Of a stretch of DNA of 64,000 bases, positions 9,497 to 24,734 are shown piece by piece. The notes under the pieces are model-generated. The model was not told where the DNA came from. It saw only the letters and a program-made list of their open reading frames with translations, and made no database searches. Every line of letters starts with the position of its first letter. Position 1 is the stretch's first letter. The position numbers were made by a program, and so were the translations under genes. Location: positions 1,024,001-1,088,000 of the forward strand of contig CAXXYH010000003.1 of the NCBI GenBank assembly GCA_963677925.2. Reading direction: 5' to 3'. The DNA is from Spirochaetia bacterium (GTDB lineage Bacteria > Spirochaetota > Spirochaetia > UBA9216).

Positions 9497-11554
9497 ATGA
9501 AAACCAGTGTAATCGGGAAACTTTTCAGCGGAATGAAGATCTCTACCAAGATCATCCTCAGCAATATATTCTTTCTTATTCCGATGGGAATTATGCTTTT
9601 TATCAGTCTTACCGGAATCAATTACGACATAAGATTCTCAAGCCTTGAGCTTTACGGAAATGAGTATCAGCAGCCGCTTGAGTCGCTGCTTCAGAATATT
9701 CAGGACCACAGAATATACTCATCCGACAGCGGTTTACAAAACAGGCTCTCAGATCTTGAAAGAAAAATAGACTCCGGATTCAATAAACTGGAAGAGGTTC
9801 AGGAAAAACGCGGCGAAGATCTTCAGTTTACCTCCGATGGACTTAGAATACGCAACAGGGAACAGCTTGTCCCTGCCCTTCTGAAAACCAGATGGAATGA
9901 TATAAAGCGATCAGGAAGCAGTGCAGATTATGAATCGCTTGTTTCAGATATACGAGAAATGATTACACATTCAGGTGATACTTCAAACCTTATCCTTGAC
10001 CCGGACCTCGACAGCTACTACCTGATGGATTTAACTCTTCTTGTTCTTCCTCAGACACAGGACAGACTTGGAGAAATACTTGCTTACGGATATGAGCTTC
10101 TGAAAGATATGGAGGCCGGCGGCATAAAAGCACTCCCTGCTTCTGACAAACTTAAATTTTACGTTTACGCAAGAATGCTTGAGGAATCCGACTACAGCAG
10201 GATACTCGGAAGCACAAATACGGCGCTTAACGAAGATCAGAACTTTTACGGTACCTATGAACCCATGCAGTCAACAATACCTTCAGCATTTGAAGCCTAC
10301 AAGGTTCCGACTCTTGAGTTTATAGGCATACTCTATGATCTCGGTACATCTGATGAGATCAATTATTCCTCATCAGAGTTTCTCGATTCCGGAGAGACAG
10401 CCCGGAATCAGAGCTTTGCCTACTGGGATGATACTGTACGGATTCTGAACGATCTTCTTGAAATCAGAATTGACAGTTACCGCAGCACTTTTATTAAATA
10501 TCTGATTGCAGCAATTGCAACCATACTCTGCGCATTCCTGATCTTCCTTGCAATCAGAAAAAACATTCTTTCTTCAATAAGTTCTCTTCAGGCGGGTTTC
10601 AGGCAGGCATCTGAAAACGACCTGACAACAAGAATAGATGTTTACGGAAGGGACGAGATAGCGCTTTGCTCTAATGACTTTAATGATCTTGTAACAAAAT
10701 TTTCAGATCTGATGAATAAACTCCAGAATATGACGGCTATACTTACCGAGTCGGTTCAGAACCTGAACGTCACTTCGCAGGAGGTTTTTGCTACATCAAA
10801 TGAACAGGCTGCCGCTGTCAAGGAAATAGTAACCACAATGGAAGATTCCGACAGCATGTCAAAGTCGGTAGCCACAAGTATTGCGGAGATTTCTGCACTT
10901 GCCTCGGGAACCAACGAATCGGTGAGAAGCGGCTTTGAACTTATCACGACCATCCTTGAGAAAATGAATGAGATTCAGCTCTCCAACGGCCAGACAATAA
11001 AAGGAATAAAATTCCTTTCGGAGAAAATTGAGAATATCTGGGAAATAGTTAACCTTATCAACGGAATCGCCGACCAGACAAAGATAATTGCCTTTAATGC
11101 CGAACTTGAAGCCTCATCTGCCGGAGAAGCCGGAAAGAGTTTTCAGCTTGTTGCTACCGAAATCAGAAGGCTTGCGGACAGTACGGTTTCATCGACTTCA
11201 GAGATAAAAAACAGGATAAACGAAATCCAGCGCTCCTCCGATGCACTTATTGTTTCTTCAGAAGACGGTACAAGAAAGATAGCAGAAGGCAATGATTTGA
11301 CAGGCCGTATGAACAGCGTATTTGAAGGGATACTTTCATCAACCGAAAAGACCTCTACTTCTACAGACTCCATCTCTATCTCAATTAACCAGCAGGTCTC
11401 ATCTTTCGAGCAGATACTGCTTACACTCAGGCAGATTTCAGAGGGAATAGACAACTTTGTTGTAGCAACAAAGGCAAGTGCCACATCTGCCGAAACTCTT
11501 AAGGGCATGGCACAGGAACTTGACAGCAGAATAGAAATGTATAATGTCAATTAA
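9497..11554 (+). CDS. Methyl-accepting chemotaxis protein (ACF-type tip) with helical periplasmic sensor
   Basis: 2 TM, HAMP, MA domain with IADQTKIIAFNAELEA; sensor motif SNLILDPDLDSYYL. Confidence 0.92.
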   Translation: MKTSVIGKLFSGMKISTKIILSNIFFLIPMGIMLFISLTGINYDIRFSSLELYGNEYQQPLESLLQNIQDHRIYSSDSGLQNRLSDLERKIDSGFNKLEEVQEKRGEDLQFTSDGLRIRNREQLVPALLKTRWNDIKRSGSSADYESLVSDIREMITHSGDTSNLILDPDLDSYYLMDLTLLVLPQTQDRLGEILAYGYELLKDMEAGGIKALPASDKLKFYVYARMLEESDYSRILGSTNTALNEDQNFYGTYEPMQSTIPSAFEAYKVPTLEFIGILYDLGTSDEINYSSSEFLDSGETARNQSFAYWDDTVRILNDLLEIRIDSYRSTFIKYLIAAIATILCAFLIFLAIRKNILSSISSLQAGFRQASENDLTTRIDVYGRDEIALCSNDFNDLVTKFSDLMNKLQNMTAILTESVQNLNVTSQEVFATSNEQAAAVKEIVTTMEDSDSMSKSVATSIAEISALASGTNESVRSGFELITTILEKMNEIQLSNGQTIKGIKFLSEKIENIWEIVNLINGIADQTKIIAFNAELEASSAGEAGKSFQLVATEIRRLADSTVSSTSEIKNRINEIQRSSDALIVSSEDGTRKIAEGNDLTGRMNSVFEGILSSTEKTSTSTDSISISINQQVSSFEQILLTLRQISEGIDNFVVATKASATSAETLKGMAQELDSRIEMYNVN

Positions 11555-11602
11555 ACCCGGAAGTAATTTCTAAAAATCAGCAGCAATTATTTGAGTTGAC
11601 TG

Positions 11603-13363
11603 TTATTTAAAATCAAGAGTTGCCGCTCCGTCCCAGTATTCGGGCGGAGATGCAATGTATTCTATGCATCGTTCCAGAAACTGTGACGTCGGAAAATCAT
11701 CCGGTAAGAGTTTCAATGCATTTTCCAGATAATCTTTTGCAGTATACCAGTTCCCTATCAGGTACATTTTTATTCCGTTTTCATAGAACCTGAACCACTC
11801 CTCTGAAAAGTTCTCAGGTTTGATCTCAAGAGAAAAGATTCTGGTCGGTTCAGTTTTACCCTTCACTCTGGCAATATCAACAAGTCTTGCAGTAAAATCA
11901 AGATGCAGACTGTTTTTTAAATTTTCTGAAACAAGTATGGGTGTACGGTAATGCTTTGTGAGACTTTCAAGTCTTGCGGCAAGATTAATTGTATCTCCGA
12001 TGGCGGTGAAATCGAATTTATCCGAACAGCCGATATTTCCGATGATAGCCGGCCCCTCGTTCAGGCCGACACCAATAGTAAACCCGCCCTCAGGAAGCTT
12101 CAGTCCGGAGAGATCGATCCGCTCATATTCACGAATCATTTCCATTGCCGCCTGGGCAGCTCTGTCGGCATTATCAATGTAGCTTACTGCAGCACCGAAA
12201 ATTGCGTAGATTGCATCACCAATGAATTTATCTACAGAACCGCCGTATTTTTTAATTATTGCCACCATGTTTGTGAAATGCTGATTCAGGAAATTAACTA
12301 CTGCATCCGGGGGATTATCAGCCATGATTTCATCAAAATGACGTATGTGGGAAAACATTGCTACAATCGTTCTCTTCTCACCGGTCATCAGATCCTTTTC
12401 TGTATCTTTAATCAGAAGATCATTGATTATCTCTTCGGGCAGGAATCTTGAAAATGCCGAGTAGATGGTTTTCGTCTCATTCTGCTTTCTTTCAAATTCC
12501 CGGGCAAGATAGATCATCTTCTTAATCTGATTTGAGATATTATCTGCTTCGAGGCCCTCAACCGGAACCTGCTCTCTCCGGATACAGCCCGCAACATAAT
12601 AACCGCTTAACCCAAGTTCCTCCGAATCAAGATCTATAAACAGTGTAACAAGTTTCTCAAGTTCAGGATCTCCAATACATCCGGCTTTAACTCCGGATCT
12701 GCATTTCTTCTTAAGTTCAATTTTTTGCTCATCATCAATTTCTTCATGAAACTTCAAAATCTCATATTCACTTTCCGACGAACCAACTGAGATATACGAA
12801 AACTCGGTATTGAGAATTAGAGCGATTCTTTCGAGGATATTTTCTATTACGAGTTCCATTCTTTCCGCGGTAACATCAAGACATCCAAGTTCGCTTTCGA
12901 AATACGCATCATACAGCCTGTCAAGGATCAGGCTTCTGGATGATGAGGCTGTAAAACCGGGTTTAAGCAGATCCTGCGGTTTTGGATGATTATCAGGATT
13001 CAAAAAAAATTCCGATTTACGGTGTTCATACATCAGCCTGCTTATCTTCATTCGGTTTTCCTGAGACATATTCTCGCTTCTTGGAACGACAAGGTCTACA
13101 GGTAAAATGGAAGATCGGTAATGCTCACCTATAAAGACCAAGGGTATCTGATTAATCAATTGAAGACTTTTAATTGAAAAAATAATCTCTTCGAGTTCTG
13201 TACTGAAACTGTCTCCCAGAAAAACAACATTCGGAGGAGAATTGTACATTTCATCAAGAAGTCTGTCCTTGGTACGGACTATTTCTATATCATACTCATC
13301 AAAATCAAGAAGTATAATCTTTGAAAGCAGCTCCGAGGCCTCTGCATAAAGTATCTCAGCCAT
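11603..13363 (-). CDS. Class III adenylate cyclase subunit (pseudo-REC, CHD, TPR); C2-like, lacks first metal Asp
   Basis: FSHIRHFD (D->H), DKFIGD, FTAIGDTINLAARLE, VKGK, C-terminal TPR and PP..WDG; start at MAEIL overlaps upstream stop. Confidence 0.88.
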   Translation of the reverse strand: MAEILYAEASELLSKIILLDFDEYDIEIVRTKDRLLDEMYNSPPNVVFLGDSFSTELEEIIFSIKSLQLINQIPLVFIGEHYRSSILPVDLVVPRSENMSQENRMKISRLMYEHRKSEFFLNPDNHPKPQDLLKPGFTASSSRSLILDRLYDAYFESELGCLDVTAERMELVIENILERIALILNTEFSYISVGSSESEYEILKFHEEIDDEQKIELKKKCRSGVKAGCIGDPELEKLVTLFIDLDSEELGLSGYYVAGCIRREQVPVEGLEADNISNQIKKMIYLAREFERKQNETKTIYSAFSRFLPEEIINDLLIKDTEKDLMTGEKRTIVAMFSHIRHFDEIMADNPPDAVVNFLNQHFTNMVAIIKKYGGSVDKFIGDAIYAIFGAAVSYIDNADRAAQAAMEMIREYERIDLSGLKLPEGGFTIGVGLNEGPAIIGNIGCSDKFDFTAIGDTINLAARLESLTKHYRTPILVSENLKNSLHLDFTARLVDIARVKGKTEPTRIFSLEIKPENFSEEWFRFYENGIKMYLIGNWYTAKDYLENALKLLPDDFPTSQFLERCIEYIASPPEYWDGAATLDFK

Positions 13364-14951
13364 ATACACCCCCGTAGGCATCTTTTCCGGGTGTATACAG
13401 ACCGTCAGGCCATTCATCATCGGTATTCCGGTTCAAAACAGTTTCCATGGATACTTCAGTACGTACATCTTCGAATACTGCTTTTGATACAAGAACCGGT
13501 TTCTGATACTGCTTTGTTATTCCCTCAAGCTCCTCGGCAATACCAACGACATCACCTATCACCGTAAAAGCGCTTTTATCCGGAGAACCAATATTTCCAA
13601 TAATTGCTTCTCCATGATGCAGACCGATCCCTATTCTGTAATGATTGCCGGACAGAACAAGACCGGAGCAGTCAACCTTCTCAATATTGTCTATCATTCC
13701 GATTGCAGCCTTTACCGCATTCTGATTGACCTGGCCGGAATCCCCGTTCAAACCGAAAACTGCAACTATGGCATCACCGATAAATTTATCGATGGTTCCT
13801 CCGTATTTTTTTATGATACCTACCATCATATCAAAATGCCGGTTCAGAAAATCAACAACCTGCTGAGCATTATTTTCTTCGGTTATTGTTGTAAATGATC
13901 TTATATCGGAAAACAGGATTGTCACATTCTTTTTCTGCACACTGTTTTTCTCTCTGTTTATTTCCTGGAAAATAAGGTCGGGAATTATCTCTGGAGGAAC
14001 AAATTTCGAAAAGATGTTGAAGATCTTACCCTGCCTGAGAATGTTCTGGCTTGTTTTAAGAGAAAGATAGAGGGGCGGTTCAATTCTGTTTACAAGTTCA
14101 CTGATAAGCTCCGGGTATATTCCTTCAAAATAATTATTACTCAGATGGCCGAAGTGTATTGTCCCCACAGCATTCCCATCCGGGCTTTTAAGTGGCAGAT
14201 AAAAATAAGAACTTAATTTTCTTGTCCCGATTTTCATCCTGCTGAATTCTTCCGAATCTTCGGTGAAGAATACTTCATGAGGATTTTCCATATCCAGCCC
14301 CTTGAAGTGTGCAAAAAAATCGTTCAGACAGAAATTAAGAAAATCCCTGTAATCTTCCCGGAATATCCCCTTGGAAGGCATGACATAGGATTCAACACTC
14401 TGGTTGTTGTTAATCAGTACAACGGATAAATGAATTTTTATTATCTGGTGAAGATACTGAAGAAGGTATTCAACTGTCTTTGATAAAACTTCAGTTTTCC
14501 CTGATACCGATGCAATATCACGCTTTACTGTCTGCTTTTGAAGATTATCAAGCAGGCGTCTGACGCTCTCCCCCTGTGAGAGACTCATTCTGATTGGAAA
14601 GTTCAAACCTGCTGCCCGGTTCCCGGTTTCAGAGTCGGGTATTTCAGACAATGTGTATACGGTTCCGGTTCCTCCGCAGGCGATAAACAGATTGCGCAGC
14701 CGGATATCATCCTTAGCCAGATAGCCGTAAACCGGAAGAGCCTCCGAATCAAGATGTTCCCTGAGAGCACAGATAATATCAAAACTCTCGGGCTGCAGCA
14801 GGTCAAGCAGTAGACAGTCAGGGACATCACGGATGTCTTTGAAACTGATGCTGTTTTTCCAGCTGATGAACCTCAGTTCAGGATTTTCAGGAGAAAGAAT
14901 TAGTTTTGAGAGTGATGCTGAAACGGCAATATCTTTCAATGATCTATCCAA
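13356..14951 (-). CDS. Class III adenylate cyclase subunit (degenerate REC, GAF-like, CHD); C1-like, lacks Asn/Arg
   Basis: FSDIRSFT, DKFIGD, FTVIGDVVGIAEELE (N->G, R->E), no KGK. Confidence 0.88.
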   Translation of the reverse strand: MDRSLKDIAVSASLSKLILSPENPELRFISWKNSISFKDIRDVPDCLLLDLLQPESFDIICALREHLDSEALPVYGYLAKDDIRLRNLFIACGGTGTVYTLSEIPDSETGNRAAGLNFPIRMSLSQGESVRRLLDNLQKQTVKRDIASVSGKTEVLSKTVEYLLQYLHQIIKIHLSVVLINNNQSVESYVMPSKGIFREDYRDFLNFCLNDFFAHFKGLDMENPHEVFFTEDSEEFSRMKIGTRKLSSYFYLPLKSPDGNAVGTIHFGHLSNNYFEGIYPELISELVNRIEPPLYLSLKTSQNILRQGKIFNIFSKFVPPEIIPDLIFQEINREKNSVQKKNVTILFSDIRSFTTITEENNAQQVVDFLNRHFDMMVGIIKKYGGTIDKFIGDAIVAVFGLNGDSGQVNQNAVKAAIGMIDNIEKVDCSGLVLSGNHYRIGIGLHHGEAIIGNIGSPDKSAFTVIGDVVGIAEELEGITKQYQKPVLVSKAVFEDVRTEVSMETVLNRNTDDEWPDGLYTPGKDAYGGVYG

Positions 14952-17124
14952 TCAGCTCCCGCACCCGTTCGAGCAGGCTGCCCCGGTCAAAATCATTTTT
15001 GTTTATGATTGCATTCCCGCCTGCGGCTTTGACTTTATCTTCGAGTTCGCTTCGCTCATTGGAGCTTATTACGATAACAGGGGTTTTTTTGTATTTCTCC
15101 TGCCTTCTGACATTCTCTATCAGCGTAATACCATCCATTCTGGGCATCTGAACATCGGTGATGATAAGATGAAAGTACTGCTCCTTCATTTTATCAAGAG
15201 CGTCAATACCGTCTACAGCAAGCGAGACATTGAAGTTCTCAAGCTCAAGAATTGATTTTTCTATTTCACGCGTTGATAAAGAGTCATCAACAACAAGAAT
15301 CTGCTTATACTGCTTGTCTTCCGGAGAATACCGTTCCTTGAACTCTATATTTCTTATGCCCTTGAACCTTGATATAAGTTCGGGAACAAACAGAATATTT
15401 ATAATCTCAAAGTTCTCATCAAAAACTATCCCTTGTATAACTTTCAGTTTCGACAGCCGTCCCGGGAGAGGTTTATATATTAACGATGAGAACTGAATTA
15501 CAGAATCAACTGTAATACCGATTATATCTCCGAGAGACTCGACAACAACTACAGAGAGTTTCTCGGATACGGATGTATTCTCTTTTCCAAGAAGGGCTGC
15601 AAGGGGATATACAGGAATTATCATCTCTCGAAGGCGTATGACATTCTTGTTGAGCACTGAAACTATTTCATCTCTTTTGATGATTAAAATTTCCTTCACG
15701 AAAGCAGTTGGAATAAGGAATTTTTTACCCTGAGCCTTAACAAAAAATCCGTCGACAGTAGCAAGGGAAAGAGGCAGTGACATTTCAAACAATGTCCCCT
15801 CACCGGTTTTACTGTCTATGATAATCTTTCCTTTAATTTTCTCAATATTTGTTTTTACAATATCAAGTCCTACCCCTCTGCCTGAAAGGTTGGTTATCTT
15901 CTTTGTGGTGGTAAACCCGGACTGAAAAAGAAAGGAGGAAAGACTTCCGTTATCCATCTTTCGAATCTCGTCCTCCATCTCAGGATTAAGCTCTATTGCC
16001 TTAGCCCGTATAGAATCATAATTTATACCTCGGCCGTCATCCCTTATTCTTATATTTATCCGTCCGCTCTCGGATGTACACTGAATAAGGATGCTTCCCT
16101 GGGAATCCTTGCCGGCTTCAGCCCTTTCCTGCGGACTTTCAATACCGTGATCAACCGCGTTACGGATAAGATGTATGATTGGATCATTAATGTTTTCAAG
16201 GATCGTTTTATCTATCAGCAAATTCGAACCAGTAATCTGAAAATCGATCTCCTTCTCAAGCAGCAGTGAAGTTTCTTCAACCATCTTTTTCAGCGGATTA
16301 AGAACCAGATTAAGAGGCAGCATCTGAAGTCCAAGAATTTCCTCCTGCAGCTCAAAACTGATATGCTCAAGCTGTGCCATTTCATCCGAATAGGTCTTCC
16401 TGATCTTCTGGGTCATCTTGGTCAGTTCCCCGAGTGAATCGGAAACAGGCTCAAGCCCGGGCTGATTGGCTGCAAAGTTTTTTACCTTCGCAAGAACACC
16501 CCGAAGACCTTCTTCAAGTTCGCTTAGAGTCTCATTTTCTCTCTTGAACTGGAACTGCTGTATAATCAGGCTGTTAAGCTGTTTTACTATTTCATCAATT
16601 TTTGTAATCTTAACCCTTATCGATTCATAATTCGACAGAGCTGAAGAGTCTTTCACTGAATCCGGAACAGGGCTGTCGTCAACACCATCCTTTCTGTTCT
16701 GGTTATGATCTCCTTCAAGCTCCTCCACTGTGAAAGCAAGGCCGGACTCCGCTTTTCTGAAGACATTCTGAAGGTTCGTCATTTCAATAGTGTCGGTACC
16801 AAGCGATTTAACCCGGTCCAGACCTTCCTCAAGATACCCGATGGAACTGTAGATCAGCTGAAGGAGATTCCGTGTAAGCGGATACCGCTTTTCCTTGACA
16901 CCCTTGAAAATGTTTTCAAGTTCATGGTTAATGGCTTCAAGATTCCTGAAATCCATCATCCGGGAAGAACCTTTGAGGGTGTGAAGCAGCCTGAGAAGTT
17001 CGGACAATTTCTCGTTGTTGTCCGGTTCCTTTCTCAGGGCAATGATGATATCACCCATGGTGACAATATTCTCTCTTGATTCCACTAAGAAGTTATCAAT
17101 AAATGATTTCTTGTCAATTGCCAT
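14944..17124 (-). CDS. cheA: Hybrid CheA-REC kinase (HPT, dimerisation, HATPase, CheW, REC; no P2)
   Basis: LHTLKGS, HLIRNAVDHGIE, DDGRG, SGRGVGLD, C-terminal VVDDS...ITDVQMP. Confidence 0.95.
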   Translation of the reverse strand: MAIDKKSFIDNFLVESRENIVTMGDIIIALRKEPDNNEKLSELLRLLHTLKGSSRMMDFRNLEAINHELENIFKGVKEKRYPLTRNLLQLIYSSIGYLEEGLDRVKSLGTDTIEMTNLQNVFRKAESGLAFTVEELEGDHNQNRKDGVDDSPVPDSVKDSSALSNYESIRVKITKIDEIVKQLNSLIIQQFQFKRENETLSELEEGLRGVLAKVKNFAANQPGLEPVSDSLGELTKMTQKIRKTYSDEMAQLEHISFELQEEILGLQMLPLNLVLNPLKKMVEETSLLLEKEIDFQITGSNLLIDKTILENINDPIIHLIRNAVDHGIESPQERAEAGKDSQGSILIQCTSESGRINIRIRDDGRGINYDSIRAKAIELNPEMEDEIRKMDNGSLSSFLFQSGFTTTKKITNLSGRGVGLDIVKTNIEKIKGKIIIDSKTGEGTLFEMSLPLSLATVDGFFVKAQGKKFLIPTAFVKEILIIKRDEIVSVLNKNVIRLREMIIPVYPLAALLGKENTSVSEKLSVVVVESLGDIIGITVDSVIQFSSLIYKPLPGRLSKLKVIQGIVFDENFEIINILFVPELISRFKGIRNIEFKERYSPEDKQYKQILVVDDSLSTREIEKSILELENFNVSLAVDGIDALDKMKEQYFHLIITDVQMPRMDGITLIENVRRQEKYKKTPVIVISSNERSELEDKVKAAGGNAIINKNDFDRGSLLERVRELIG

Positions 17125-18520
17125 ACCTGACTCCCTCTTTCAGATTATCTAATCTAGCCCTGCATATCTCCCTGAAATACTTGGCGTTAAACCCTTCAAG
17201 CAGGAACTGGTAATCTATTCTTTTATCACTTATATAACGATCGATATCCCTTGTCAGAATTCCAAGATGTATCTCTTCGCCCGCGGATGAGGTTCCGCAG
17301 CTGAAAGTAATGTAATATCTTGCCGGCCAGAATGCCGGATTGGCATCAAGCACTTTCTGAAAAGCAGAAAGTGCTGCAGATTTGTCCCCCTTCTGCAGAG
17401 GGATAAACCCGCCGAAAAAGCTGTAAAGACTCTGAGGATGTTCATTGGGTTTCAGCTGTGCAAACAGAACTTCGGCTTTTTTAAGGTTGTTTCTGCCAAG
17501 CTCGGAAAGAATATCAGCAAATTTTTCAGCCGATCTCAAGGCCGGGGAATCATCATCTGTAAAAATAGGGTTGTTAAGAATATTTGTGATAAACAGACAA
17601 ACCTGCTTTTCATCAGGAGGAGCCTGAAGCTCGGCTTTATGGATAACTTTTTTTACCGGCTCAGCAGATATGATATGACTGGGCACCGGCTGAATATTTG
17701 CCGGCTCCATATGAAGAGGATCTTTCTTCCTTAAAAAATAACAGTAGTCACTGGAAATAACTTCAAGCTGGGGATGTGATATGTGTGCAACCTCAGAAGC
17801 CGACAGAATCAGAATTCCTCTGTTTTTTAGCTTCTCGGTAATTTTGTTGATAACCTTCTGTTTATTTTCAAGATTCATATAGATCAGTGTATTCCTGAGA
17901 AAAACACAGTCCATCATGGGAAGATCGGCAAGGCTGTCATTATAAAGATTGATTTCCCGGATATCTATTTTATTCATGACATCTTCTTTAATAGATAGTT
18001 CTTCAGAGCCTTCAGATCGGGATGAAACCTCATCAAGCAGTTCATGAAAAAGCTTCCCGTCGGTTCGGAGTGCTCCCTTACGGAATATTCCTTTCCGGAA
18101 TTTATTCAAAATATGAGCGTTAATATCACTCGCATAAACCTTAAACGGCAGCCTGAGCTTTCCGTTCATCAGTGCATATAATGAAACAGGTTCTTCACCT
18201 GATGAACAGCTTGCACTCCAAATATTAATTGAGCCGCCTTCATTGTTCTTTTCAGGTATAAATACATCCCTGAGATATTTGAATTGTTTTTCTTCTCTGA
18301 AAAAATAGGTTTCATTTATAGTAACATGATCAAGTAAGCGTTCGTATTCTTCCTTTACTGTCTTAAGGATATTGAGATATACCTGTGCAGATCCGTTGAA
18401 ATCCTTTAACCGGTCATCAAGGTAGCCGTTGAAACTCATCATGTTTACAGGCTTCAGGTCAATCCCTGTGTGATATTCAATAAACCTTATTATTTCTGCG
18501 TATGAACTCATAGGCCGCAC
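17114..18520 (-). CDS. cheR: CheR methyltransferase with C-terminal TPR (WspC/FrzF-like)
   Basis: INETYFFRE, WSASCSSGEE, ASDIN, RNTLIY; TPR-like tail. Confidence 0.92.
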   Translation of the reverse strand: MRPMSSYAEIIRFIEYHTGIDLKPVNMMSFNGYLDDRLKDFNGSAQVYLNILKTVKEEYERLLDHVTINETYFFREEKQFKYLRDVFIPEKNNEGGSINIWSASCSSGEEPVSLYALMNGKLRLPFKVYASDINAHILNKFRKGIFRKGALRTDGKLFHELLDEVSSRSEGSEELSIKEDVMNKIDIREINLYNDSLADLPMMDCVFLRNTLIYMNLENKQKVINKITEKLKNRGILILSASEVAHISHPQLEVISSDYCYFLRKKDPLHMEPANIQPVPSHIISAEPVKKVIHKAELQAPPDEKQVCLFITNILNNPIFTDDDSPALRSAEKFADILSELGRNNLKKAEVLFAQLKPNEHPQSLYSFFGGFIPLQKGDKSAALSAFQKVLDANPAFWPARYYITFSCGTSSAGEEIHLGILTRDIDRYISDKRIDYQFLLEGFNAKYFREICRARLDNLKEGVRYGN

Positions 18521-19563
18521 ATTTCTTTTAATTCGGATGATATTTTCTGCAGCGGCAGAATTTTTGTTGCTGCATTAAGTTCCGCGGCGGCCTTGGGCAT
18601 TCCGTATATCAGCGATGTTTCACGGTCCTGAACAAGGGTTCGGCCTCCGGACTGTAAAATCTTAAGACAGCCGTCAGCTCCGTCCCGGCCCATTCCCGTA
18701 AGCAGAACACCTATTACGCCGCTGCCGTGACTGGCTGCCGCCGAGAAAAACATTTTGTCAACCGAAGGCTTCTGGTTCTGCAGTTTAGGAGAATCATCCC
18801 AGTATGCCTTCTGTTTCGTACAGCAGAGATGATAGGTTGACGGAGCCACAAGTACAGTACCAGGCTGAATTGTGTCATTTTCCTCTGAGATTCTGACGGT
18901 AAGCTCGGTGCCCTCATCCAGCCAGCGTGCGTAGCCCTCATCATAGCCCTCTTCTATATGCTGGCTCAGCAGTATGCCGACAGGGAAATTCCCCGGCAGT
19001 CCTTTTAAGACCTCACGTACAGCCGACGGTCCTCCGGTAGAGGCCCCTATTACAACGAGGGTGCAGGCCTTCCCTCCTGATAAACCTGGAGACGGTTTTA
19101 CGGACAAAGATGAAAAATCTCCTGCGGGGGGGGTAAGTTCCGTCTTCTCAATAATCATTTTTTTATTAAGTCTGAAACTTCCGAACCGTCCGGTATTTTC
19201 AAGAACTGTTTTGAAGGAAGCAGCAAACTCAGGGTCATTCATTTTACTTACTGCCGGCTTCGGAATAACTTCAAGTGCGCCCTTATTAAGGGCATTGAAT
19301 CCGACCTCGGAAATATCTTCACTTGTAAGAATCACTATCGGCAGAGGAGTGTTCTGCATAATTATCTCTGTGGCTGTAATGCCGTCCATAAGCGGCATAT
19401 TGACATCCATCAGAAGAAGGTCGGGCTTGAGTGATTTAACAAGCTCAATGGCCTGCTGACCGTTACTGCCTTCTCCTACTACTTCAAAACCGCCTAGTGA
19501 CTCAAGCAGCTGCTTTATAATTGAGCGTACCAGGTATGAATCATCAACCAATACTATTTTCAT
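18508..19563 (-). CDS. cheB: CheB response regulator methylesterase
   Basis: REC (VDD, LLMDVNMP, KP); GASTGG, QH, TGMGRDG. Confidence 0.95.
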   Translation of the reverse strand: MKIVLVDDSYLVRSIIKQLLESLGGFEVVGEGSNGQQAIELVKSLKPDLLLMDVNMPLMDGITATEIIMQNTPLPIVILTSEDISEVGFNALNKGALEVIPKPAVSKMNDPEFAASFKTVLENTGRFGSFRLNKKMIIEKTELTPPAGDFSSLSVKPSPGLSGGKACTLVVIGASTGGPSAVREVLKGLPGNFPVGILLSQHIEEGYDEGYARWLDEGTELTVRISEENDTIQPGTVLVAPSTYHLCCTKQKAYWDDSPKLQNQKPSVDKMFFSAAASHGSGVIGVLLTGMGRDGADGCLKILQSGGRTLVQDRETSLIYGMPKAAAELNAATKILPLQKISSELKEMCGL

Positions 19564-20098
19564 TGTTTTTTCCTGTAAGAATATTCCTGATATTTGTTTC
19601 AATATCTATGAAGAACTGGATACGTGATTCATTGCTGAAACGGCAGCCAAGCAGTCCGTTTCGAAGAAGAAGACCATCAAGTCCGGGGGGATTAACATAA
19701 AATTCGTTCAAAGACAGTGTCTTTATCTCGACCTGGCTTGAAACAATCAGACCGATACTGTCTATATGGACATCCTCATGCAGATCGGTAATCTTCATTA
19801 CCCGCTGAATTGTTTCATTGTTATAATCCGCTATATTCACTATGAGGCAGAGTTTGAGCCGTGAAGGATTTTTACATTTATAATTGTCCATCAGGAACTG
19901 ATCAAAATCACAGAGGACAAGATTTCTGCTGTTATAATCAGTGTATTTATCAAAATAGTCAGGACAGCCTGAATGAACTTCATAAAGTTCATTCAGGGAG
20001 GAGCTGCCTGTAAACTGGCTGCGATGGATTAGAAAATCAATTTCACGGTACTGCAGAACCAGAAAATCAGCACTGCTTCCATCGGAATTAATAGGCAC
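19544..20098 (-). CDS. Divergent CheW-like protein
   Basis: Position between cheW and cheB; beta-rich pattern (IGLIV..., FFIDI) like CheW; overlapping stop/start. Confidence 0.55.
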   Translation of the reverse strand: MPINSDGSSADFLVLQYREIDFLIHRSQFTGSSSLNELYEVHSGCPDYFDKYTDYNSRNLVLCDFDQFLMDNYKCKNPSRLKLCLIVNIADYNNETIQRVMKITDLHEDVHIDSIGLIVSSQVEIKTLSLNEFYVNPPGLDGLLLRNGLLGCRFSNESRIQFFIDIETNIRNILTGKNNENSIG

Positions 20099-20627
20099 TG
20101 ATATCGCCCTCCATCTTCTTTATCAGTGTGTTAAGATCAAATACAAAGATTTCTTCTGTATCAGTCGGGTTTATAGTGCCTATAAAATAGTCCTCATCCG
20201 GAATGGTGGATGTTATCCTGTGCAGTTCACTTTCCGGCAGATTTACAATCTCGACTACATCCGAAATAAGAATGGCAAGCTGATCATCCGCCCTGTTTAA
20301 AATCAGAAAGGTTGAAGAATCAAGCTTCTCTCCCTCCAGTATCACAGTCATGTCAATAACAGTATAGGGTTCACCATGCCGGTTAATAAAACCGCTGATA
20401 TACGGAGGTGTAAAGGGGACATAGAATACCGGCGTATTTCCGATTATCTCCTTTACTTCATCTGCAAACAATGCAAATTTTTTATCCTTGATTCCAATAA
20501 TCATATACTTGTTGTATTTCTGCGAGATTATAGCGGCTTTACCGTCTTTTTCGCTTCTAATCCGGCTTATCCTGTTCAGGATTTCCCTGGTCTCATTCGT
20601 CCGGCTGCTTTCTTCATTCTGCATCAT
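20088..20627 (-). CDS. cheW: CheW scaffold protein
   Basis: FALFADEVKEI, VPFTPPYISGFINRHGEPYTVID. Confidence 0.92.
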   Translation of the reverse strand: MMQNEESSRTNETREILNRISRIRSEKDGKAAIISQKYNKYMIIGIKDKKFALFADEVKEIIGNTPVFYVPFTPPYISGFINRHGEPYTVIDMTVILEGEKLDSSTFLILNRADDQLAILISDVVEIVNLPESELHRITSTIPDEDYFIGTINPTDTEEIFVFDLNTLIKKMEGDISAY

Positions 20628-20646
20628 TCACCTCCAGTCAGGGTTC

Positions 20647-21030
20647 TCAATAAAAATCTTCACTGAAAAGTCCGCGCCGTGCCTTCTTTTCACCATCACT
20701 GAACCCAATCTTGGCAATAAGAACCGCTACAGCCTTTTCAAGCTCGAGTGTTTTTCCAGTAAATTCCATTCCATAGTAATGATGTCCGGTCTTTCTATCC
20801 TGTTTATTCCATCTTGTTTCTACTGTTATCGGAGGCAGAGGCACACTTATAAATCCTTCAAAGGGTATCTTTATCTCTATCGTTCCCTTAAAGCCGGAAT
20901 CGATAGGCTGCTCAGCCAGAAGAAGGACTCCATTGGAACTGATGTCTGCCAGCTTACCGATCATATTCCCGGTTTCGGTATCCTCTATATCAAGATAGTA
21001 AACAAGATTTCTTCTTTTTATTTCGCGCAC
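20647..21030 (-). CDS. Stand-alone PilZ domain protein
   Basis: RxxxR (REIKR) and DxSxxG (DISSNG); likely GTG start after AAGGTG. Confidence 0.85.
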   Translation of the reverse strand: MREIKRRNLVYYLDIEDTETGNMIGKLADISSNGVLLLAEQPIDSGFKGTIEIKIPFEGFISVPLPPITVETRWNKQDRKTGHHYYGMEFTGKTLELEKAVAVLIAKIGFSDGEKKARRGLFSEDFY

Positions 21031-21056
21031 TGTATCACCTTTATCTGCATGCAATT

Positions 21057-23051
21057 TTATTCGATGTCACTTACATTATACTTATCAACCAGTTCCTTAA
21101 GTCCGTCGGCCATGGCTTTCAGATTTTCGGTTGATGCTGATGTTGACCTGGTGGAAACAACAAAATTATCTATACCGCCTGATATCTGCCTTAATGTCAG
21201 AAGAATCTGCTCAAACGCAGAAACCTGCTGATTGATAGATACGTTTATCTGCTGTGCCGATTCCGCTGATATTTCCGCAGAGCTTAAAACATCCTCGAAT
21301 ATTTTTCGGAGAGCACCTGAAAGCTCACCGCCTTCCCTGATATGTTCAGTTCCCTCTTCAGAAGCAATAATGAGGTTATCTGAAGAATGCTGAATTTCGT
21401 TAATCTTTCCCTTTATTTCACTTGTGGAAGACATCGTAATATCAGCAAGACGTCTGATTTCTGTTGCAACTATCTGAAAATTCTTTCCTGCTTCACCTGC
21501 GGCAGAAGCCTCCAGTTCCGCATTGAATGCAATAATTTTAGTCTGATCGGCAATCCCGTTAATTATATTTACAATCTCCCAGATGCTGTCTATCTTTTCG
21601 CTTAGTGCTTTTATTCCGTCGATAGTCTCCGAGTTTGATTTTTTAATTTCATCCATCTTTTCCAGGGTGCCCTGAACTGTTGAAAAGCCTGTCTGCACGA
21701 CCTCTCTTGTATTATCAGAAATTCTGGTCACCTCTTCGATCCTGTTTGCTATATTCTTTGACAGCTGATCAGAATCCTCCATGGTCGTAACTATTTCTTT
21801 TACTGCTGCAGCCTGCTCATTTGATGTTGCAGTAATCTGCTGGGATGATACCGAGAGATTCTGAACCGATTCAAAAAGCTCTGCAGAGGTAGATTTTATC
21901 CTTCTGAGCATATCCTCAACTGTATCAATCAAAGCGTTAAAATGAATTGATACTGTTCCTATTTCATCATGGCTTTTCTGCTCTACCCGTCCGGTCAAAT
22001 CGCCGGCGGCAATATTCTCAGTAAGTATTTTAATCTGTATCAGAGGCTTCAGGATACGTTTGAGAATAAGGGCAATAAGGTAATTGGCAAAAATAAAGGC
22101 GACAAAAAGAATAATTACACTGATAATTTTTATTTTATTCAGAAGACCGAACATATCGCTTGTATATGCCTTGGTAACAATGATTAGATCCAGGTCGGGA
22201 TAGGCTCTGAAAATTGCGATAGAATCTGAATCAATTTTATCACCAAGCATTCTGTAGGTTATCGAACCGTTCTGCTTCTTGATGATATCCCTTATAAAAT
22301 AGCTTCCATCTTCAGCCTGGTTATCATAAAGGCTTTCACCCTTAAGTGTTGGATGAATAAGAAGTTTGCCCTCATTATTCATGATATACGGATATCCGTT
22401 TTCACCTATTTTTATGCTCAGAATCCTTTTTTCAAGCTCGCCCAGATCAACCAGTTTATGGAATTCCGATTTATAAGATGAGGCCCAAATTATAAGATCC
22501 CAGGGTTTAAAATATGCCATACCGCCCGCTTTTGAGCGTGGTTTATCTTCATTCTTGTTCTGCCACTCATATTCCAGATACCCTTCCTTCATTGAAGTAG
22601 CTCTTTTCATAAAATCATAACCGCTTGCATCCGCCCCTTCCGAAAGAGGATGTATTACAAGAACACCCTTTCCGTCCACTCCGGCAAGATACCCGGTTTC
22701 ACCGATCTTTCCGATATCAGGATCAAGGATGATATTTTTTACATTCTGCCATGCCCGGGCTTCTGTCTGCCGTCCGGCTTTAAATTGATCATATTCATGT
22801 TCCACCAGCCGTTTTACCATTTCAGCTGTGCTGATAAGATAATTCTGAACGCTGGCATCCACATAGCTGTCGGTAAGCTGGTAAATCAATTCCGTTGTAT
22901 TTGAAAGCTCGTTCCGGTACTGCTTATCAAGACCGGATGTAAGATTTACAAAAATTCCAACCCCAAGCCCTGCCAGAACTATAACGAAAAGAACTCCGAA
23001 CACAGCCTGGATTTTTACACTGACACTTGAAAGTAATCTCCTAATATCCAT
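21057..23051 (-). CDS. Methyl-accepting chemotaxis protein with tandem Cache_2-type sensors (ACF-type tip)
   Basis: IGETGY..HP / IGENGYPY..HP Cache motifs; HAMP; IADQTKIIAFNAELEA. Confidence 0.93.
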   Translation of the reverse strand: MDIRRLLSSVSVKIQAVFGVLFVIVLAGLGVGIFVNLTSGLDKQYRNELSNTTELIYQLTDSYVDASVQNYLISTAEMVKRLVEHEYDQFKAGRQTEARAWQNVKNIILDPDIGKIGETGYLAGVDGKGVLVIHPLSEGADASGYDFMKRATSMKEGYLEYEWQNKNEDKPRSKAGGMAYFKPWDLIIWASSYKSEFHKLVDLGELEKRILSIKIGENGYPYIMNNEGKLLIHPTLKGESLYDNQAEDGSYFIRDIIKKQNGSITYRMLGDKIDSDSIAIFRAYPDLDLIIVTKAYTSDMFGLLNKIKIISVIILFVAFIFANYLIALILKRILKPLIQIKILTENIAAGDLTGRVEQKSHDEIGTVSIHFNALIDTVEDMLRRIKSTSAELFESVQNLSVSSQQITATSNEQAAAVKEIVTTMEDSDQLSKNIANRIEEVTRISDNTREVVQTGFSTVQGTLEKMDEIKKSNSETIDGIKALSEKIDSIWEIVNIINGIADQTKIIAFNAELEASAAGEAGKNFQIVATEIRRLADITMSSTSEIKGKINEIQHSSDNLIIASEEGTEHIREGGELSGALRKIFEDVLSSAEISAESAQQINVSINQQVSAFEQILLTLRQISGGIDNFVVSTRSTSASTENLKAMADGLKELVDKYNVSDIE

Positions 23052-23162
23052 CCTTGTATCTCCTACATTTAATTTTCGGCAAAATCAGAGGCAATTTCCA
23101 ATCATTATTCAAGTATCCGGAAAACCTGTACAAAAAGAGTCAAAAGTAGTAATTTCTGGAGT

Positions 23163-23366
23163 ATGGAAGATAGAATAATATCTCTTGAAACTAAACTTGC
23201 TTTTGCAGAAGACAGCATTCAGGAATTGAACAAAACGGTACTTTCCCAGGAGAAGGATATACAGAAGCTTCGGGCTTTCTGTCTGGAGCTGCAGAAGAAA
23301 TTAAACGATCTGGCAGAATCTGATAACTCAGATTTCAGTGCTGATCAGAGACCGCCGCATTATTAA
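23163..23366 (+). CDS. slyX: SlyX family protein
   Basis: MEDRIISLETKLAF...ELN...C-terminal RPPHY. Confidence 0.9.
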   Translation: MEDRIISLETKLAFAEDSIQELNKTVLSQEKDIQKLRAFCLELQKKLNDLAESDNSDFSADQRPPHY

Positions 23367-23371
23367 TACTA

Positions 23372-23421
23372 AAAGACCTGCAGAAAATAGTTGAAATACT
23401 CCAATTATCACTGCAGGTCTT
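23372..23421. terminator. Inverted repeat / terminator between convergent genes
   Basis: AAGACCTGCAG...CTGCAGGTCTT. Confidence 0.65.
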
Positions 23422-23459
23422 AATCTTTAAACTGTTTTAATAAACAATGTATGGTCTTT

Positions 23460-24170: not shown

Positions 24171-24631
24171 TCATCTCCTCCGGTTTCCTCAAGAGCATCC
24201 TCACTGTTTTTTTCTGTTTTGGATATAGCATCATCTGCTGCCTTCATTGCAGCAAGGGCTTCTTCCCTCTTTTTGAGAGCAATATCGGCCGATTCATCAA
24301 ACTTCTCAGAGGCAAGACTGTACAGTTCAAAAGCATCGGAATAATTTTCATCGGCAAAGGCATCATCGGCATGTTCATAGTACTCCATAGCCTTGATGTA
24401 TTCATCAGGTGCAGCTTTTGGAGCCTTTAGTTCAACGGCCTTCTCCTGCGAGGTTCCAGCCAGTTTTTTTGCATCTTCGGCCTCGGTTTTTCCTGCTTTT
24501 ACGGTAACGACAGGAGTTTCAGACCGCCCGGATTCCGGGTCAGGACTTATCGTTTCTTCCGGCGTAGTAGCACATGAAAATGAAATAAGTAGAATTAATG
24601 TAATTAAAATTGGAAATAATAACTTACGCAT
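24167..24631 (-). CDS. Helical lipoprotein coupled to the LysM gene
   Basis: Lipobox SFSC; Ala/Glu-rich helices; ATGA overlap with LysM gene. Confidence 0.75.
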   Translation of the reverse strand: MRKLLFPILITLILLISFSCATTPEETISPDPESGRSETPVVTVKAGKTEAEDAKKLAGTSQEKAVELKAPKAAPDEYIKAMEYYEHADDAFADENYSDAFELYSLASEKFDESADIALKKREEALAAMKAADDAISKTEKNSEDALEETGGDE

Positions 24632-24734
24632 ATTTTACCTTCTCCAGAAAGAATAATATCTCAAATTCCGCATAATTCATATACTAACTGATATTTCATT
24701 GCAATTGAGAACTGTTTCACTATATTATCCTTGT

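What the first reader, a model, noticed from the sequence alone, without database searches (positions are those of the whole stretch)
11603..14951. Two adjacent class III cyclases with reciprocal catalytic losses: a predicted obligate heterodimeric (C1/C2-like) bacterial adenylate cyclase
Seen: gene 13356-14951 keeps both metal-binding Asp (FSDIRSFT, IGD) but has VVGIAEELE instead of VNxAxRLE (Asn->Gly, Arg->Glu) and no KGK. Gene 11603-13363 keeps Lys (DKFIG), Thr (FTAIG), Asn/Arg (INLAARLE) and VKGK, but its first metal Asp is His and its phosphate loop is degenerate (FSHIRHFD; His codon 12347-12349). The genes are coupled by an 8-nt overlap. Established: class III active sites form at the dimer interface, with metal Asp from one subunit and K/T(D)/N/R/K from the other; mammalian tmAC (C1/C2) and sGC (alpha/beta) divide these roles, whereas characterised bacterial enzymes are mostly homodimers. 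Inference: neither homodimer is active, and the heterodimer has one ATP-specific (K+T, class IIIb) site plus one degenerate, possibly allosteric pocket.
Basis: partly seen in the sequence, partly recalled or inferred. Interest (0 to 1): 0.92.

Follow-up and report, generated by a model that had tools for sequence, protein, structure and literature searches.

The report
Split two-gene adenylate cyclase in spirochaetes
Two neighbouring cyclase genes each keep only half of the catalytic residues, in a complementary way conserved in many spirochaetes, so they most likely work only as a mixed pair that makes cAMP at the end of a chemotaxis-like signalling operon.

Summary
cycA (13356-14951, minus strand) keeps both metal Asp (D349, D393) but has Gly470 and Glu474 for the Asn and Arg, and no KGK. 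cycB (11603-13363) has His339 (CAC, 12347-12349) for the first metal Asp but keeps K379, D383, T453, N460, R464 and K501/K503. The genes overlap by 8 nt.

The His is not an error. Of 222 homologues typed, 37 carry His at that position and keep every C2-type residue. Another 35 keep both Asp but lack the Arg. The other 150 are canonical.

The pair sits in the order A then B, after a CheA-REC gene, in 9 of 9 other complete loci examined. The A-stop/B-start distance is -11 to +10 nt in 9 of 10 loci.

[quoted passage not shown] They derive from REC-GAF-cyclase response regulators.

Best reading: an obligate C1/C2-like heterodimer with one ATP site and a rebuilt pseudo-site. That pseudo-site carries an invariant His in B and an invariant Glu473 in A. 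The pair would be the output of a Che-like pathway.

I found no open-access report of such a natural bacterial pair.

The parts
13356..14951 (-). cycA, the C1-like subunit (531 aa from TTG 14951; the likely true start is TTG 14939, giving 527 aa). It has a degenerate receiver, a GAF-like domain, a long helix and a cyclase domain.
14652..14951 (-). cycA N-terminal receiver-like domain. Only the phospho-acceptor position Asp50 (14802-14804) is kept; the acidic pair, the Thr/Ser and the Lys are missing.
   Evidence: BLASTP to the REC-GAF-cyclase protein P0158; REC alignment; D50 invariant in 22 of 22
14142..14489 (-). cycA GAF-like middle domain, strongly conserved (EDYxDFxNFCLNDFF, KISSY, HLGHLxNNYF).
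   Evidence: invariant columns; weak GAF_2 Pfam hits in the relatives P0140 and P0158; beta-sheet at 175-269 in the AF2 model
13389..13937 (-). cycA cyclase homology domain. Kept: D349 (13905-13907), D393 (13773-13775), K389, T463. Changed: Gly470 for Asn (13542-13544), Glu473 (13533-13535), Glu474 for Arg (13530-13532). No KGK.
13356..13363 (-). 8-nt overlap ATGGCTGA between the cycA stop and the cycB start (translational coupling), with GGGGG 6 nt upstream of the ATG.
11603..13363 (-). cycB, the C2-like subunit (586 aa). It has a degenerate receiver, a poorly conserved GAF-like region, a cyclase domain and a conserved C-terminal TPR-like tail.
11846..12373 (-). cycB cyclase homology domain. 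Changed: His339 (12347-12349) for metal Asp 1 and Asp344 for the P-loop Thr. Kept: K379, D383 (12215-12217), T453, N460 (11984-11986), R464 (11972-11974), K501/K503 (11855-11863).
11606..11806 (-). cycB C-terminal tail (GNWxxA ... RC ... PPExWDGxxxLxFK). It is conserved in B orthologues and absent from cycA; canonical relatives give weak TPR hits here.
14944..17124 (-). Hybrid CheA (Hpt, HATPase_c, CheW-like and a C-terminal receiver), directly upstream of cycA.
17114..18520 (-). CheR methyltransferase with a C-terminal extension of about 215 aa.
18508..19602 (-). CheB methylesterase (REC plus CheB_methylest).
19544..20098 (-). Conserved 184-aa protein with no recognised family, lying between CheW and CheB.
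   Evidence: no family; conserved in 7 of 9 other loci by tblastn
20088..20627 (-). CheW.
20647..21054 (-). PilZ-domain protein.
   Evidence: 23.3 bits against a cut-off of 22.5; a homologue sits in the operon of L112-L116
21057..23051 (-). Cache-HAMP methyl-accepting chemoreceptor, first gene of the cluster.

Best explanation
cycA and cycB are full-length paralogues derived from a REC-GAF-cyclase(-TPR) response-regulator adenylate cyclase, and they have divided the catalytic residues between them. They are made in equal amounts from translationally coupled genes and assemble head-to-tail into a heterodimer with one complete active site. In that site cycA supplies the two metal-binding Asp (D349, D393) and the phosphate loop. 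cycB supplies the adenine-selecting Lys379 and Thr453, the transition-state Asn460 and Arg464, and the phosphate Lys (K501/K503). The product should be cAMP. The symmetry-related site cannot catalyse. It has His339 and Asp344 from cycB and Gly470, Glu473 and Glu474 from cycA, but it carries invariant gained residues, so it probably serves as a heterodimer-specific latch or a regulatory pocket. An A:A dimer would put acid against acid at both sites and would lack Asn, Arg and Lys. A B:B dimer would lack one metal ligand. The pair is the dedicated output of a Che-like pathway (Cache-MCP, PilZ, CheW, unknown protein, CheB, CheR, CheA-REC). Shown here: the sequence pattern, its conservation, the co-occurrence, the gene order and coupling, and the common descent. 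Inferred: physical heterodimerisation, inactivity of the homodimers, cAMP as product, the role of the pseudo-site, and how CheA-REC controls the enzyme. On that last point, both receiver domains in this clade are degenerate, whereas the B-like partner in a more distant clade keeps a near-intact receiver.
For: Both proteins are class III cyclase domains. They are paralogous over 509 aligned profile columns.

Conservation in close orthologues: H339, K379, D383, T453, N460, R464, K501 and K503 are invariant in 21 of 21 B orthologues at 39-69% identity. D349, D393, T463, E473 and E474 are invariant in 22 of 22 A orthologues.

I defined the groups by His at metal-1 (B) and by non-Arg at the Arg position (A). 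All 37 B-type proteins keep K, D, T, N and R, and 36 keep Lys503 (one has Arg). All 35 A-type proteins keep both Asp and the Thr, and 34 of 35 keep the Lys. Metal-1 is Asp in 185 and His in 37, and nothing else occurs. Glu at the A473 position occurs in 35 of 35 A-type proteins and in 0 of the 187 others.

Census: among the best 150 representatives of an exhaustive profile search, 24 are His-type.

Co-occurrence: in 401 genomes of the class, full-length A N-termini occur in G000, G008, G155, G249, G257, G273 and G336, and the B N-terminus occurs in those same seven genomes.

Synteny: the order CheW-...-CheB-CheR-CheA-REC-A-B holds in 5 of 5 close and 4 of 4 distant complete loci. The A-stop/B-start distance is -11 to +10 nt in 9 of 10 loci.

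Phylogeny: B-type proteins form one clade (support 96), also after I removed the key columns. A-type proteins form one clade (98) with all columns.

Mapping to solved enzymes: profile alignment to the solved adenylate cyclase 5x4t (OaPAC) places His339 on the metal Asp and aligns K, T, N, R and KGK. The A profile matches the C1 region of type 5 cyclase and the VC1 chains, and the B profile matches the type 5 C2 region.

Established rule: C1 gives the metal Asp, C2 gives the substrate and transition-state residues, and the pseudo-site binds forskolin (passage read in PMC4174876).

Effectors: the genome has 16 cNMP-binding domain matches.
Against: No binding, structure or activity data exist.

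His can ligate Mn, Fe, Co or Zn, and cycB keeps the second Asp, so a B homodimer with altered metal use is not excluded.

cycA keeps Lys389 and Thr463, and cycB keeps Asp383. All three serve only the 'dead' site, so that site is not simply decaying and may do something unforeseen.

With the key columns removed, the A-type proteins split into two groups in the FastTree tree, although no strongly supported branch forces more than one origin.

A and B types were defined by the very residues then counted, so only the other positions count as independent.

Both receiver domains in this clade lack the Thr/Ser and the Lys, so the link from CheA to the cyclase is unexplained.

The system is patchy. 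It was not found in the same-genus genome G001 with these queries.

No RNA run was listed, so co-transcription is not shown.
Confidence: 0.7

Rival explanations
1. cycB is active by itself as a homodimer that uses His339 plus Asp383 as an unusual metal site (for example Mn, Fe, Co or Zn). cycA is a non-catalytic regulatory or inhibitory partner.
For: cycB keeps every residue except the first Asp, including the second metal Asp. His is a competent metal ligand (general chemistry). The His is invariant rather than variable (37 of 37 by definition of the group, and no residue other than D or H occurs at this position among 222 proteins).
Against: The phosphate-loop Thr next to the metal site is also lost in all 37 B-type proteins (D 24, S 6, N 3, E 2, G 1, H 1). 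cycA keeps exactly the residues cycB lacks, both Asp and the loop Thr in 35 of 35, which this reading does not explain. The strict co-occurrence and coupling point to a 1:1 complex.
Confidence: 0.1
2. Both proteins are catalytically dead pseudo-cyclases. They act as a nucleotide-binding or scaffolding output of the Che pathway, alone or together.
For: Each protein on its own lacks essential residues. Both receiver domains are degenerate. No activity data exist.
Against: Pseudo-enzymes normally lose catalytic residues without a pattern. Here the complementary half-sites are invariant across 35 and 37 proteins, down to about 32-35% identity of the neighbouring CheA. That is what selection on one composite active site would produce.
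Confidence: 0.08
3. cycA homodimers keep low basal activity without Asn, Arg and Lys, and cycB merely boosts them. The heterodimer would then be facultative rather than obligate.
For: cycA has both metal Asp, Lys389 and Thr463. From recall: point mutants of the Asn or Arg in other class III enzymes keep residual activity.
Against: Three residues are missing at once (Asn, Arg and the phosphate Lys), and two Glu are introduced at the site. An A:A dimer would face acid against acid at both sites (inference).
Confidence: 0.08
4. The His codon or the degenerate motifs are assembly or sequencing errors, or the genes are decaying pseudogenes.
For: None were found. Only one public run holds the stretch, and it may be the source of the assembly.
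Against: Both frames are intact. The same residues occur in tens of independent assemblies. The Logan contig is identical over 11603-14951 (not independent).
Confidence: 0.01

Closest known systems
Mammalian membrane adenylate cyclase C1/C2 catalytic core (for example the VC1/IIC2 structures)
   Same: There are two different class III domains. One gives the metal Asp pair and the other gives the substrate-selecting and transition-state residues, so there is one active site and one pseudo-site (passage in PMC4174876). The A profile matches C1 chains and the B profile matches the C2 region of type 5.
   Different: Here the two domains are separate genes rather than one chain, and the proteins are soluble with receiver-like and GAF-like domains. 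The origin is independent, within bacterial REC-GAF-cyclases. The adenine-selecting pair is Lys/Thr, whereas as I recall it is Lys/Asp in the mammalian enzyme. The C2-like subunit keeps the second Asp and has His at the first. No forskolin-type ligand is known.
Soluble guanylate cyclase alpha/beta heterodimer
   Same: Two separate polypeptides with homologous cyclase domains act as a heterodimer, and the beta homodimer is inactive (abstract of PMC3591389 as listed). Sensor domains and a helical linker precede the catalytic domain.
   Different: sGC makes cGMP, uses H-NOX/PAS sensors and is eukaryotic. The pair here has Lys/Thr, aligned with adenylate cyclases, and sits in a Che operon.
Bacterial homodimeric class III cyclases closest in sequence: REC-GAF-cyclase-TPR response regulators of about 615 aa. 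Closest solved ones are Cya2 (2w01), OaPAC (4yus/5x4t), CyaB (3r5g), bPAC (5m27) and CyaC (1wc0).
   Same: They share the fold, and the response regulators share the domain order. A aligns with P0158 from the receiver Asp to the end of the cyclase domain. B's sister group consists of such proteins.
   Different: All 150 canonical relatives typed carry the metal-1 Asp, the Lys, the second Asp, the Asn and the Arg in one chain, so they can form two symmetric sites. [quoted passage not shown]
Engineered complementing mutants of Rv1625c and CyaB1 (recalled, not seen in any call)
   Same: A metal-Asp mutant mixed with an Asn/Arg mutant restores activity through a heterodimer with one site. That is the laboratory version of what these genes appear to do naturally.
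   Different: Those are artificial point mutants of a single gene. Here the split is natural, fixed and ancient, and the pseudo-site has gained residues.
Che-like pathways with enzymatic outputs (Wsp/WspR for c-di-GMP; Pil-Chp and CyaB for cAMP)
   Same: A full MCP/CheW/CheA/CheB/CheR set is linked to second-messenger synthesis. Mononucleotidyl-cyclase response regulators have been catalogued in CheR-TPR clusters (passage in PMC3447774).
   Different: The output here is a two-subunit cyclase whose receiver domains are degenerate. CheA carries its own receiver, and no separate CheY is in the cluster.

Membership tests
Class III nucleotidyl cyclase (Pfam PF00211) | Cyclase homology domain recognised by the family profile | tested here: met
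   A scores 75.5 bits and B 77.8 bits against a cut-off of 21.9. Profile hits to solved class III cyclases reach E 1e-36 to 1e-38.
Class III nucleotidyl cyclase (catalytically self-sufficient homodimer) | Two metal-binding Asp in the same chain | tested here: not met
   A has both (D349, D393). B has His339 at the first position.
Class III nucleotidyl cyclase (catalytically self-sufficient homodimer) | Transition-state Asn and Arg, and the phosphate Lys (KGK), in the same chain as the Asp pair | tested here: not met
   B has N460, R464 and K501/K503. A has Gly470 and Glu474 and no KGK. Neither chain has the full set.
Adenylate-specific class III cyclase, Lys/Thr type (called 'class IIIb' from recall) | Substrate-selecting Lys, with Thr in place of Asp | tested here: met
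   K379/T453 in B and K389/T463 in A align with the KFIGD and DYT motifs of the photoactivated adenylyl cyclase 5x4t. The subclass label is recalled and comes from no call.
C1/C2-type heterodimeric cyclase (functional class) | Two different cyclase domains with complementary half-sites | tested here: met
C1/C2-type heterodimeric cyclase (functional class) | Physical heterodimer, with activity only in the mixed pair | not testable with these tools
An enzyme assay is needed.
Eukaryotic tmAC or sGC lineage (homology membership) | Descent from the eukaryotic C1/C2 or alpha/beta duplication | tested here: not met
   A and B nest among bacterial REC-GAF-cyclases, and B's sister group is 15 canonical bacterial proteins. 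The best solved matches are bacterial or cyanobacterial enzymes.
Response regulator (receiver domain) | Acidic pair, phospho-acceptor Asp, Thr/Ser and Lys | tested here: not met
   A keeps only Asp50. B keeps Glu8 and Asp51 but has Gly for Thr/Ser and no Lys. There is no Pfam REC hit. The distant B-like clade keeps D, D, S and K, with PF00072 hits.
Che-like chemosensory pathway (non-motility type) | MCP, CheW, CheA, CheB and CheR in one cluster with a non-flagellar output | tested here: met
   Pfam hits for all five. The same cluster ends in the cyclase pair in 9 of 9 other loci. Formal class assignment (ACF or another) was not tested.

The most novel reading that the evidence does not exclude
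This is an independent bacterial re-invention of the C1/C2 principle, in which the dead site was not merely lost but rebuilt. An invariant His339 (with Asp383) on cycB would face an invariant Glu473 (with Glu474) on cycA. Together they would form an inter-subunit His/Asp/Glu/Glu site that works as a heterodimer-specific latch, or as a metal-, pH- or adenine-nucleotide-sensing allosteric pocket. That would make it a prokaryotic counterpart of the forskolin site. The whole enzyme would be switched by a chemoreceptor array through CheA-REC acting on pseudo-receiver domains.
Probability: 0.3. Interest if true: 0.85.

Novelty: new variant of a known kind. Interest (0 to 1): 0.72.

Why it matters
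A passage in PMC5699072 contrasts bacterial homodimeric cyclases, which can process two nucleotide molecules, with the heterodimeric mammalian catalytic domain, in which one site takes an allosteric ligand. A natural two-gene bacterial heterodimer that arose independently would show that the same division of labour evolves repeatedly. It would also give a simple soluble system in which to ask what a pseudo-site is for and what makes a heterodimer obligate. The half-sites, the conserved His/Glu pair and intermediate forms (a distant clade with an intact receiver on the C2-like subunit) are all available as natural variants, so the steps of sub-functionalisation can be tested directly. It would also define a chemoreceptor-to-cAMP pathway in free-living spirochaetes, the cAMP analogue of Wsp.

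Tried and rejected
Sequencing error or pseudogene: rejected, because the residues are conserved in tens of assemblies. The one public run holding the stretch has an identical contig, but it may be the source of the assembly and is not independent. No RNA holder was listed, so nothing can be said about expression.

The search for related loci on genome contigs with the B alignment picked generic cyclase patterns ([IV]DKFIGDA, AIIGNIGC). I replaced it with the genome search using the N-terminal 330 residues of each protein.

Promoter and terminator scan of 11000-24500: 35 promoter-like sites against 28.2 +/- 5.1 in shuffles, and 14 terminator-like sites against 11.2 +/- 3.6. This is not informative for operon boundaries.

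The 184-aa ORF at 19544-20098 has no family in Pfam (E up to 1) or NCBIfam (E up to 1). The Atlas did not hold it.

A CheR TPR extension is not supported by Pfam (TPR_19, E 0.22).

Rhodospirillum centenum gcyB/gcyC as a precedent: rejected. The passages I read call them putative or non-catalytic guanylyl cyclase subunits, annotated as hypothetical proteins (PMC4681086; PMC10187061).

Chloroflexus sAC-like cyclase: the passage I read (PMC11006738) shows only bicarbonate activation. That it has a tandem C1-C2 in one chain is recalled, not verified.

Literature: nine searches of the open-access library found no description of a natural bacterial two-gene class III heterodimer. Subscription reviews (Linder and Schultz 2003; Linder 2006; Bassler, Schultz and Lupas 2018; all recalled, none seen) could not be searched and may mention one. 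Supplements were closed, and Table S2 of PMC3447774 may list cyclase-output Che clusters. PMC2447327 returned no occurrence of 'heterodimer' in the 20,587 characters held.

Homo- against heterodimer modelling and any His-Glu distance are therefore untested. The AF2 monomer of cycA (pLDDT 79.7, pTM 0.46) could not be compared with structure libraries because fold search was off. The cycB model could not be made.

Full report
WHAT IS THERE. On the minus strand, ORF 13356-14951 (531 aa, cycA) is followed by ORF 11603-13363 (586 aa, cycB). Both match the class III cyclase domain PF00211: A at residues 339-493, where the match stops at profile position 152 of 183, and B at residues 331-506. The two catalytic domains are 43% identical. 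The family profiles align over 509 columns, from the N-terminus to the end of the cyclase domain, with hhalign probability 100. They are therefore full-length paralogues.

cycA has FSDIRSFT (D349), KFIGDA (K389, D393), FTVIG (T463) and GDVVGIAEELE (Gly470, Glu473, Glu474), and it has no KGK. cycB has FSHIRHFD (His339, codon CAC at 12349-12347; Asp344 in place of the loop Thr), KFIGDA (K379, D383), FTAIG (T453), INLAARLE (N460, R464) and VKGK (K501, K503).

The cycA stop and the cycB start share ATGGCTGA, an 8-nt overlap. A profile search of solved structures aligns cycB's His with the Asp of 'FFSDIVSF' in the photoactivated adenylyl cyclase 5x4t, and aligns K, T, N, R and KGK with their counterparts.

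There are two refinements. cycA most likely starts at the second TTG (14939), which reproduces the orthologues' MK[ND]IAVSAS start. For cycB, orthologues support the 13363 start and not the longer ORF from 13420 that a gene caller used for the 604-aa database entry P0003.

IS IT REAL AND CONSERVED. A word-indexed search with cycB returned full-length relatives at 39-69% identity. In an alignment of 21 of them, H339, K379, D383, T453, N460, R464, K501 and K503 are invariant. The search with cycA gave the matching set. In 22 aligned sequences D349, R351, T354, D393, T463, A472, E473, E474 and E476 are invariant, and K389 is nearly so.

I then typed all 222 distinct proteins from the two result lists, that is the best 120 of each with the two copies of the window's own proteins dropped. 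Groups were defined by the residue at the first metal position and at the Arg position. Thirty-seven have His at metal-1, 35 lack the Arg, and 150 are canonical.

Positions not used for the definition tell the story:
- All 37 His-type proteins keep K, the second Asp, T, N and R. Lys503 is kept in 36, and one has Arg.
- None of the 37 keeps the loop Thr (D 24, S 6, N 3, E 2, G 1, H 1).
- All 35 A-type proteins keep both Asp and the loop Thr, and 34 of 35 keep the Lys.
- All 35 A-type proteins have Glu at the position of Glu473. That position is Ser or Ala in all 150 canonical proteins and Ala in all 37 B-type proteins.
- Across the 222 proteins the first metal position is Asp (185) or His (37), and never anything else.

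An exhaustive profile search of 1.84 billion cluster representatives gave 104,005 hits at E up to 0.001. Among the best 150, 24 are His-type, made up of 15 seen before and 9 new. Four are A-type, one (P0226) has Lys at that position, three are fragments without the position, and the rest are canonical. Sources' names for these proteins, where given, are all spirochaetal.

ARE THEY PARTNERS. The A-type and B-type clusters report the same longest-contig length in 17 cases, which suggested co-location. I tested this in genomes.

With cycB's N-terminal 330 residues, 10 of 401 genomes of the class matched at E up to 1e-5. Matches covering most of the query are in G000, G155, G249, G257, G273 and G336. 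Contig-end fragments are in G008 and G384. G001 and G006 match only the linker of canonical proteins.

With cycA's N-terminal 330 residues, 35 of 401 matched. Matches reaching back to residue 59 or earlier are in G000, G008, G155, G249, G257, G273 and G336. These are the genomes that also hold cycB. G384 (74% complete) holds only the 2-kb cycB fragment. The other 28 matches cover only the GAF-like part, mostly in ORFs of about 620 aa, which are the canonical relatives. ORFs of about 520 aa turned up in G342, G360, G114 and G169.

I fetched five complete close loci and those four distant ones. In 9 of 9, tblastn finds CheW, CheB, CheR, CheA-REC, an A-type gene and then a B-type gene in that order, with a Cache chemoreceptor at one end or the other. 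In the four distant loci CheA is only 32-35% identical, yet the motifs repeat: the A-like gene has F[ST]DIR plus xAEELE or TAELLE and no KGK, and the B-like gene has FSH[IV][KR] plus NLAARLE plus KGK.

The distance from the A stop to the best-placed B start is -11 to +10 nt in 9 of 10 loci, the window included. One locus was not resolved by my script.

In a FastTree tree of the catalytic domains, the 37 B-type proteins form one clade (support 96), and they still do after I removed the key columns and their neighbours. The 35 A-type proteins form one clade (98) with all columns. Without the key columns they form two groups, a core of 24 at support 98 and the rest, with no strongly supported branch forcing two origins. 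B's sister group is 15 canonical proteins of about 615 aa.

WHAT THE PROTEINS ARE MADE OF. The canonical relatives are response regulators with REC, a weak GAF_2 match, Guanylate_cyc and weak TPR hits. cycA aligns with one of them (P0158) from the receiver's phospho-acceptor Asp to the end of the cyclase domain.

In cycA orthologues only that Asp (D50) survives. The acidic pair, the Thr/Ser and the Lys are gone. In cycB orthologues Glu8 and Asp51 survive, Gly replaces the Thr/Ser and the Lys is lost. Neither protein gives a Pfam REC hit. In the distant clade the B-like subunit keeps D, D, S and K and scores as REC, while its A-like partner is degenerate.

The middle domain of cycA is strongly conserved, whereas that of cycB is not. 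The AlphaFold2 model of cycA (pLDDT 79.7, pTM 0.46) shows four parts: an alpha/beta N-domain, a helical segment followed by a beta-sheet domain (175-269), a helix of about 55 residues (279-334), and the cyclase domain. It could not be compared with structure libraries. cycB alone has a conserved C-terminal tail.

CONTEXT. Upstream on the same strand, with overlaps or tiny gaps, lie a Cache-HAMP chemoreceptor, a PilZ protein, CheW, a conserved 184-aa protein with no family, CheB, CheR with a long C-terminal extension, and a hybrid CheA with its own receiver. No separate CheY is in the cluster. A second chemoreceptor converges on cycB. The genome holds 10 cyclase domains and 16 cNMP-binding domain matches.

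HOW IT MOST LIKELY WORKS. Class III active sites form at the dimer interface. In the mammalian enzyme C1 gives the metal Asp, C2 gives the substrate-selecting and transition-state residues, and the second site is a pseudo-site that binds forskolin (passage read in PMC4174876). [quoted passage not shown]

Mapped onto that rule, cycA is C1-like and cycB is C2-like. An A:B dimer has one complete site: D349, D393 and the loop Thr354 from A, and K379, T453, N460, R464 and K503 from B. Lys plus Thr align with solved adenylate cyclases, so cAMP is the expected product.

The mirror site has His339, Asp344 and Asp383 from B, and Lys389, Thr463, Gly470, Glu473 and Glu474 from A. It cannot hold the triphosphate or stabilise the transition state. 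But its hallmark residues, His in B and Glu473 in A, are invariant gains. I therefore infer that they pair across the interface, directly or through a metal. That would lock the heterodimer and disfavour A:A (acid facing acid) and B:B. Because Lys389 and Thr463 persist, the pocket might alternatively still bind an adenine compound as a regulator.

The coupling of the genes would give 1:1 synthesis. The Che array presumably controls the enzyme through CheA-REC. How it does so is open, since the cyclases' own receivers look unable to be phosphorylated in this clade.

Shown: pattern, conservation, co-occurrence, order, coupling and descent. Inferred: everything about binding, activity, product and control.

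RIVALS. The rivals I considered are these: a B homodimer using a His/Asp metal site with A as regulator, two dead pseudo-enzymes, a weakly active A homodimer boosted by B, and sequencing error. The first three are not excluded, but none explains why each partner keeps exactly what the other has lost. The last is refuted by conservation.

COMPARISON AND NOVELTY. Functionally the pair resembles the tmAC C1/C2 core and sGC alpha/beta. By descent it belongs to neither, because both subunits nest among bacterial REC-GAF-cyclases. Cyclase-type response regulators in Che clusters have been catalogued before (passage in PMC3447774). R. centenum gcyB/gcyC are described as putative or non-catalytic subunits and are not a parallel.

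Nine searches of the open-access library found no natural bacterial two-gene class III heterodimer with complementary half-sites. Subscription reviews and supplements could not be checked. I rate it a new variant of a known kind.

LIMITS. No RNA data were listed. The one DNA run that holds the stretch is probably its source.

Noticed in passing
window 19544-20098 (-): A 184-aa protein between CheW and CheB has no Pfam or NCBIfam family. tblastn finds it at the same place in 7 of 9 other loci, so it may be an undescribed component of this Che pathway. It overlaps the predicted CheB start by 59 nt, so one of the two starts may be wrong.
   Followed up: partly
window 20647-21054 (-) and 24699-26243 (+): A PilZ-domain gene sits inside the Che-cyclase operon, and a 7TM-GGDEF diguanylate cyclase lies about 3.6 kb upstream on the other strand. 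This hints at cross-talk between c-di-GMP and this cAMP output.
   Followed up: no
window 14937-14951 (-): cycA has two in-frame TTG codons. The second (14939) gives an N-terminus matching the orthologues and leaves a 4-nt gap after the CheA stop. The first would give an 8-nt overlap instead.
   Followed up: partly
window 13364-13420 (-): The database copy of cycB (P0003, 604 aa) starts at an upstream ATG inside cycA. Orthologue alignments support the 586-aa start at 13363.
   Followed up: yes
P0226 (626 aa): This B-like representative has Lys instead of His at the first metal position and Lys at the loop position, and it keeps K, D, T, N, R and K. It is a second way of disabling the same residue. 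Its partner and context were not examined.
   Followed up: no
L118-L121 and proteins P0043, P0044, P0051, P0054, P0048, P0057, P0065: In a distant clade of the same operon type, the C2-like (His) subunit keeps a near-intact receiver domain (D, D, S, K; Pfam REC hits) while the C1-like partner's receiver is degenerate. This looks like an intermediate stage in which phosphorylation could still control the pair.
   Followed up: partly
window 17114-18520 (-): CheR carries a C-terminal extension of about 215 aa with only a faint TPR_19 match (E 0.22). CheR-TPR fusions are reported to mark non-motility Che clusters (PMC3447774, title and passages read).
   Followed up: no
G001 (same genus) and other genomes of family f1: The pair is patchy. 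It was not found with these queries in the 98%-complete same-genus genome. That genome has only a canonical REC-cyclase of about 622 aa as its best match.
   Followed up: partly
window 9497-11554 (+) against L112-L116: The chemoreceptor converging on cycB in the window lacks a Cache hit (HAMP plus MCPsignal only). In five related loci the convergent downstream receptor is similar to the window's Cache receptor at 21057-23051, so the receptor genes have been rearranged around a fixed core.
   Followed up: no
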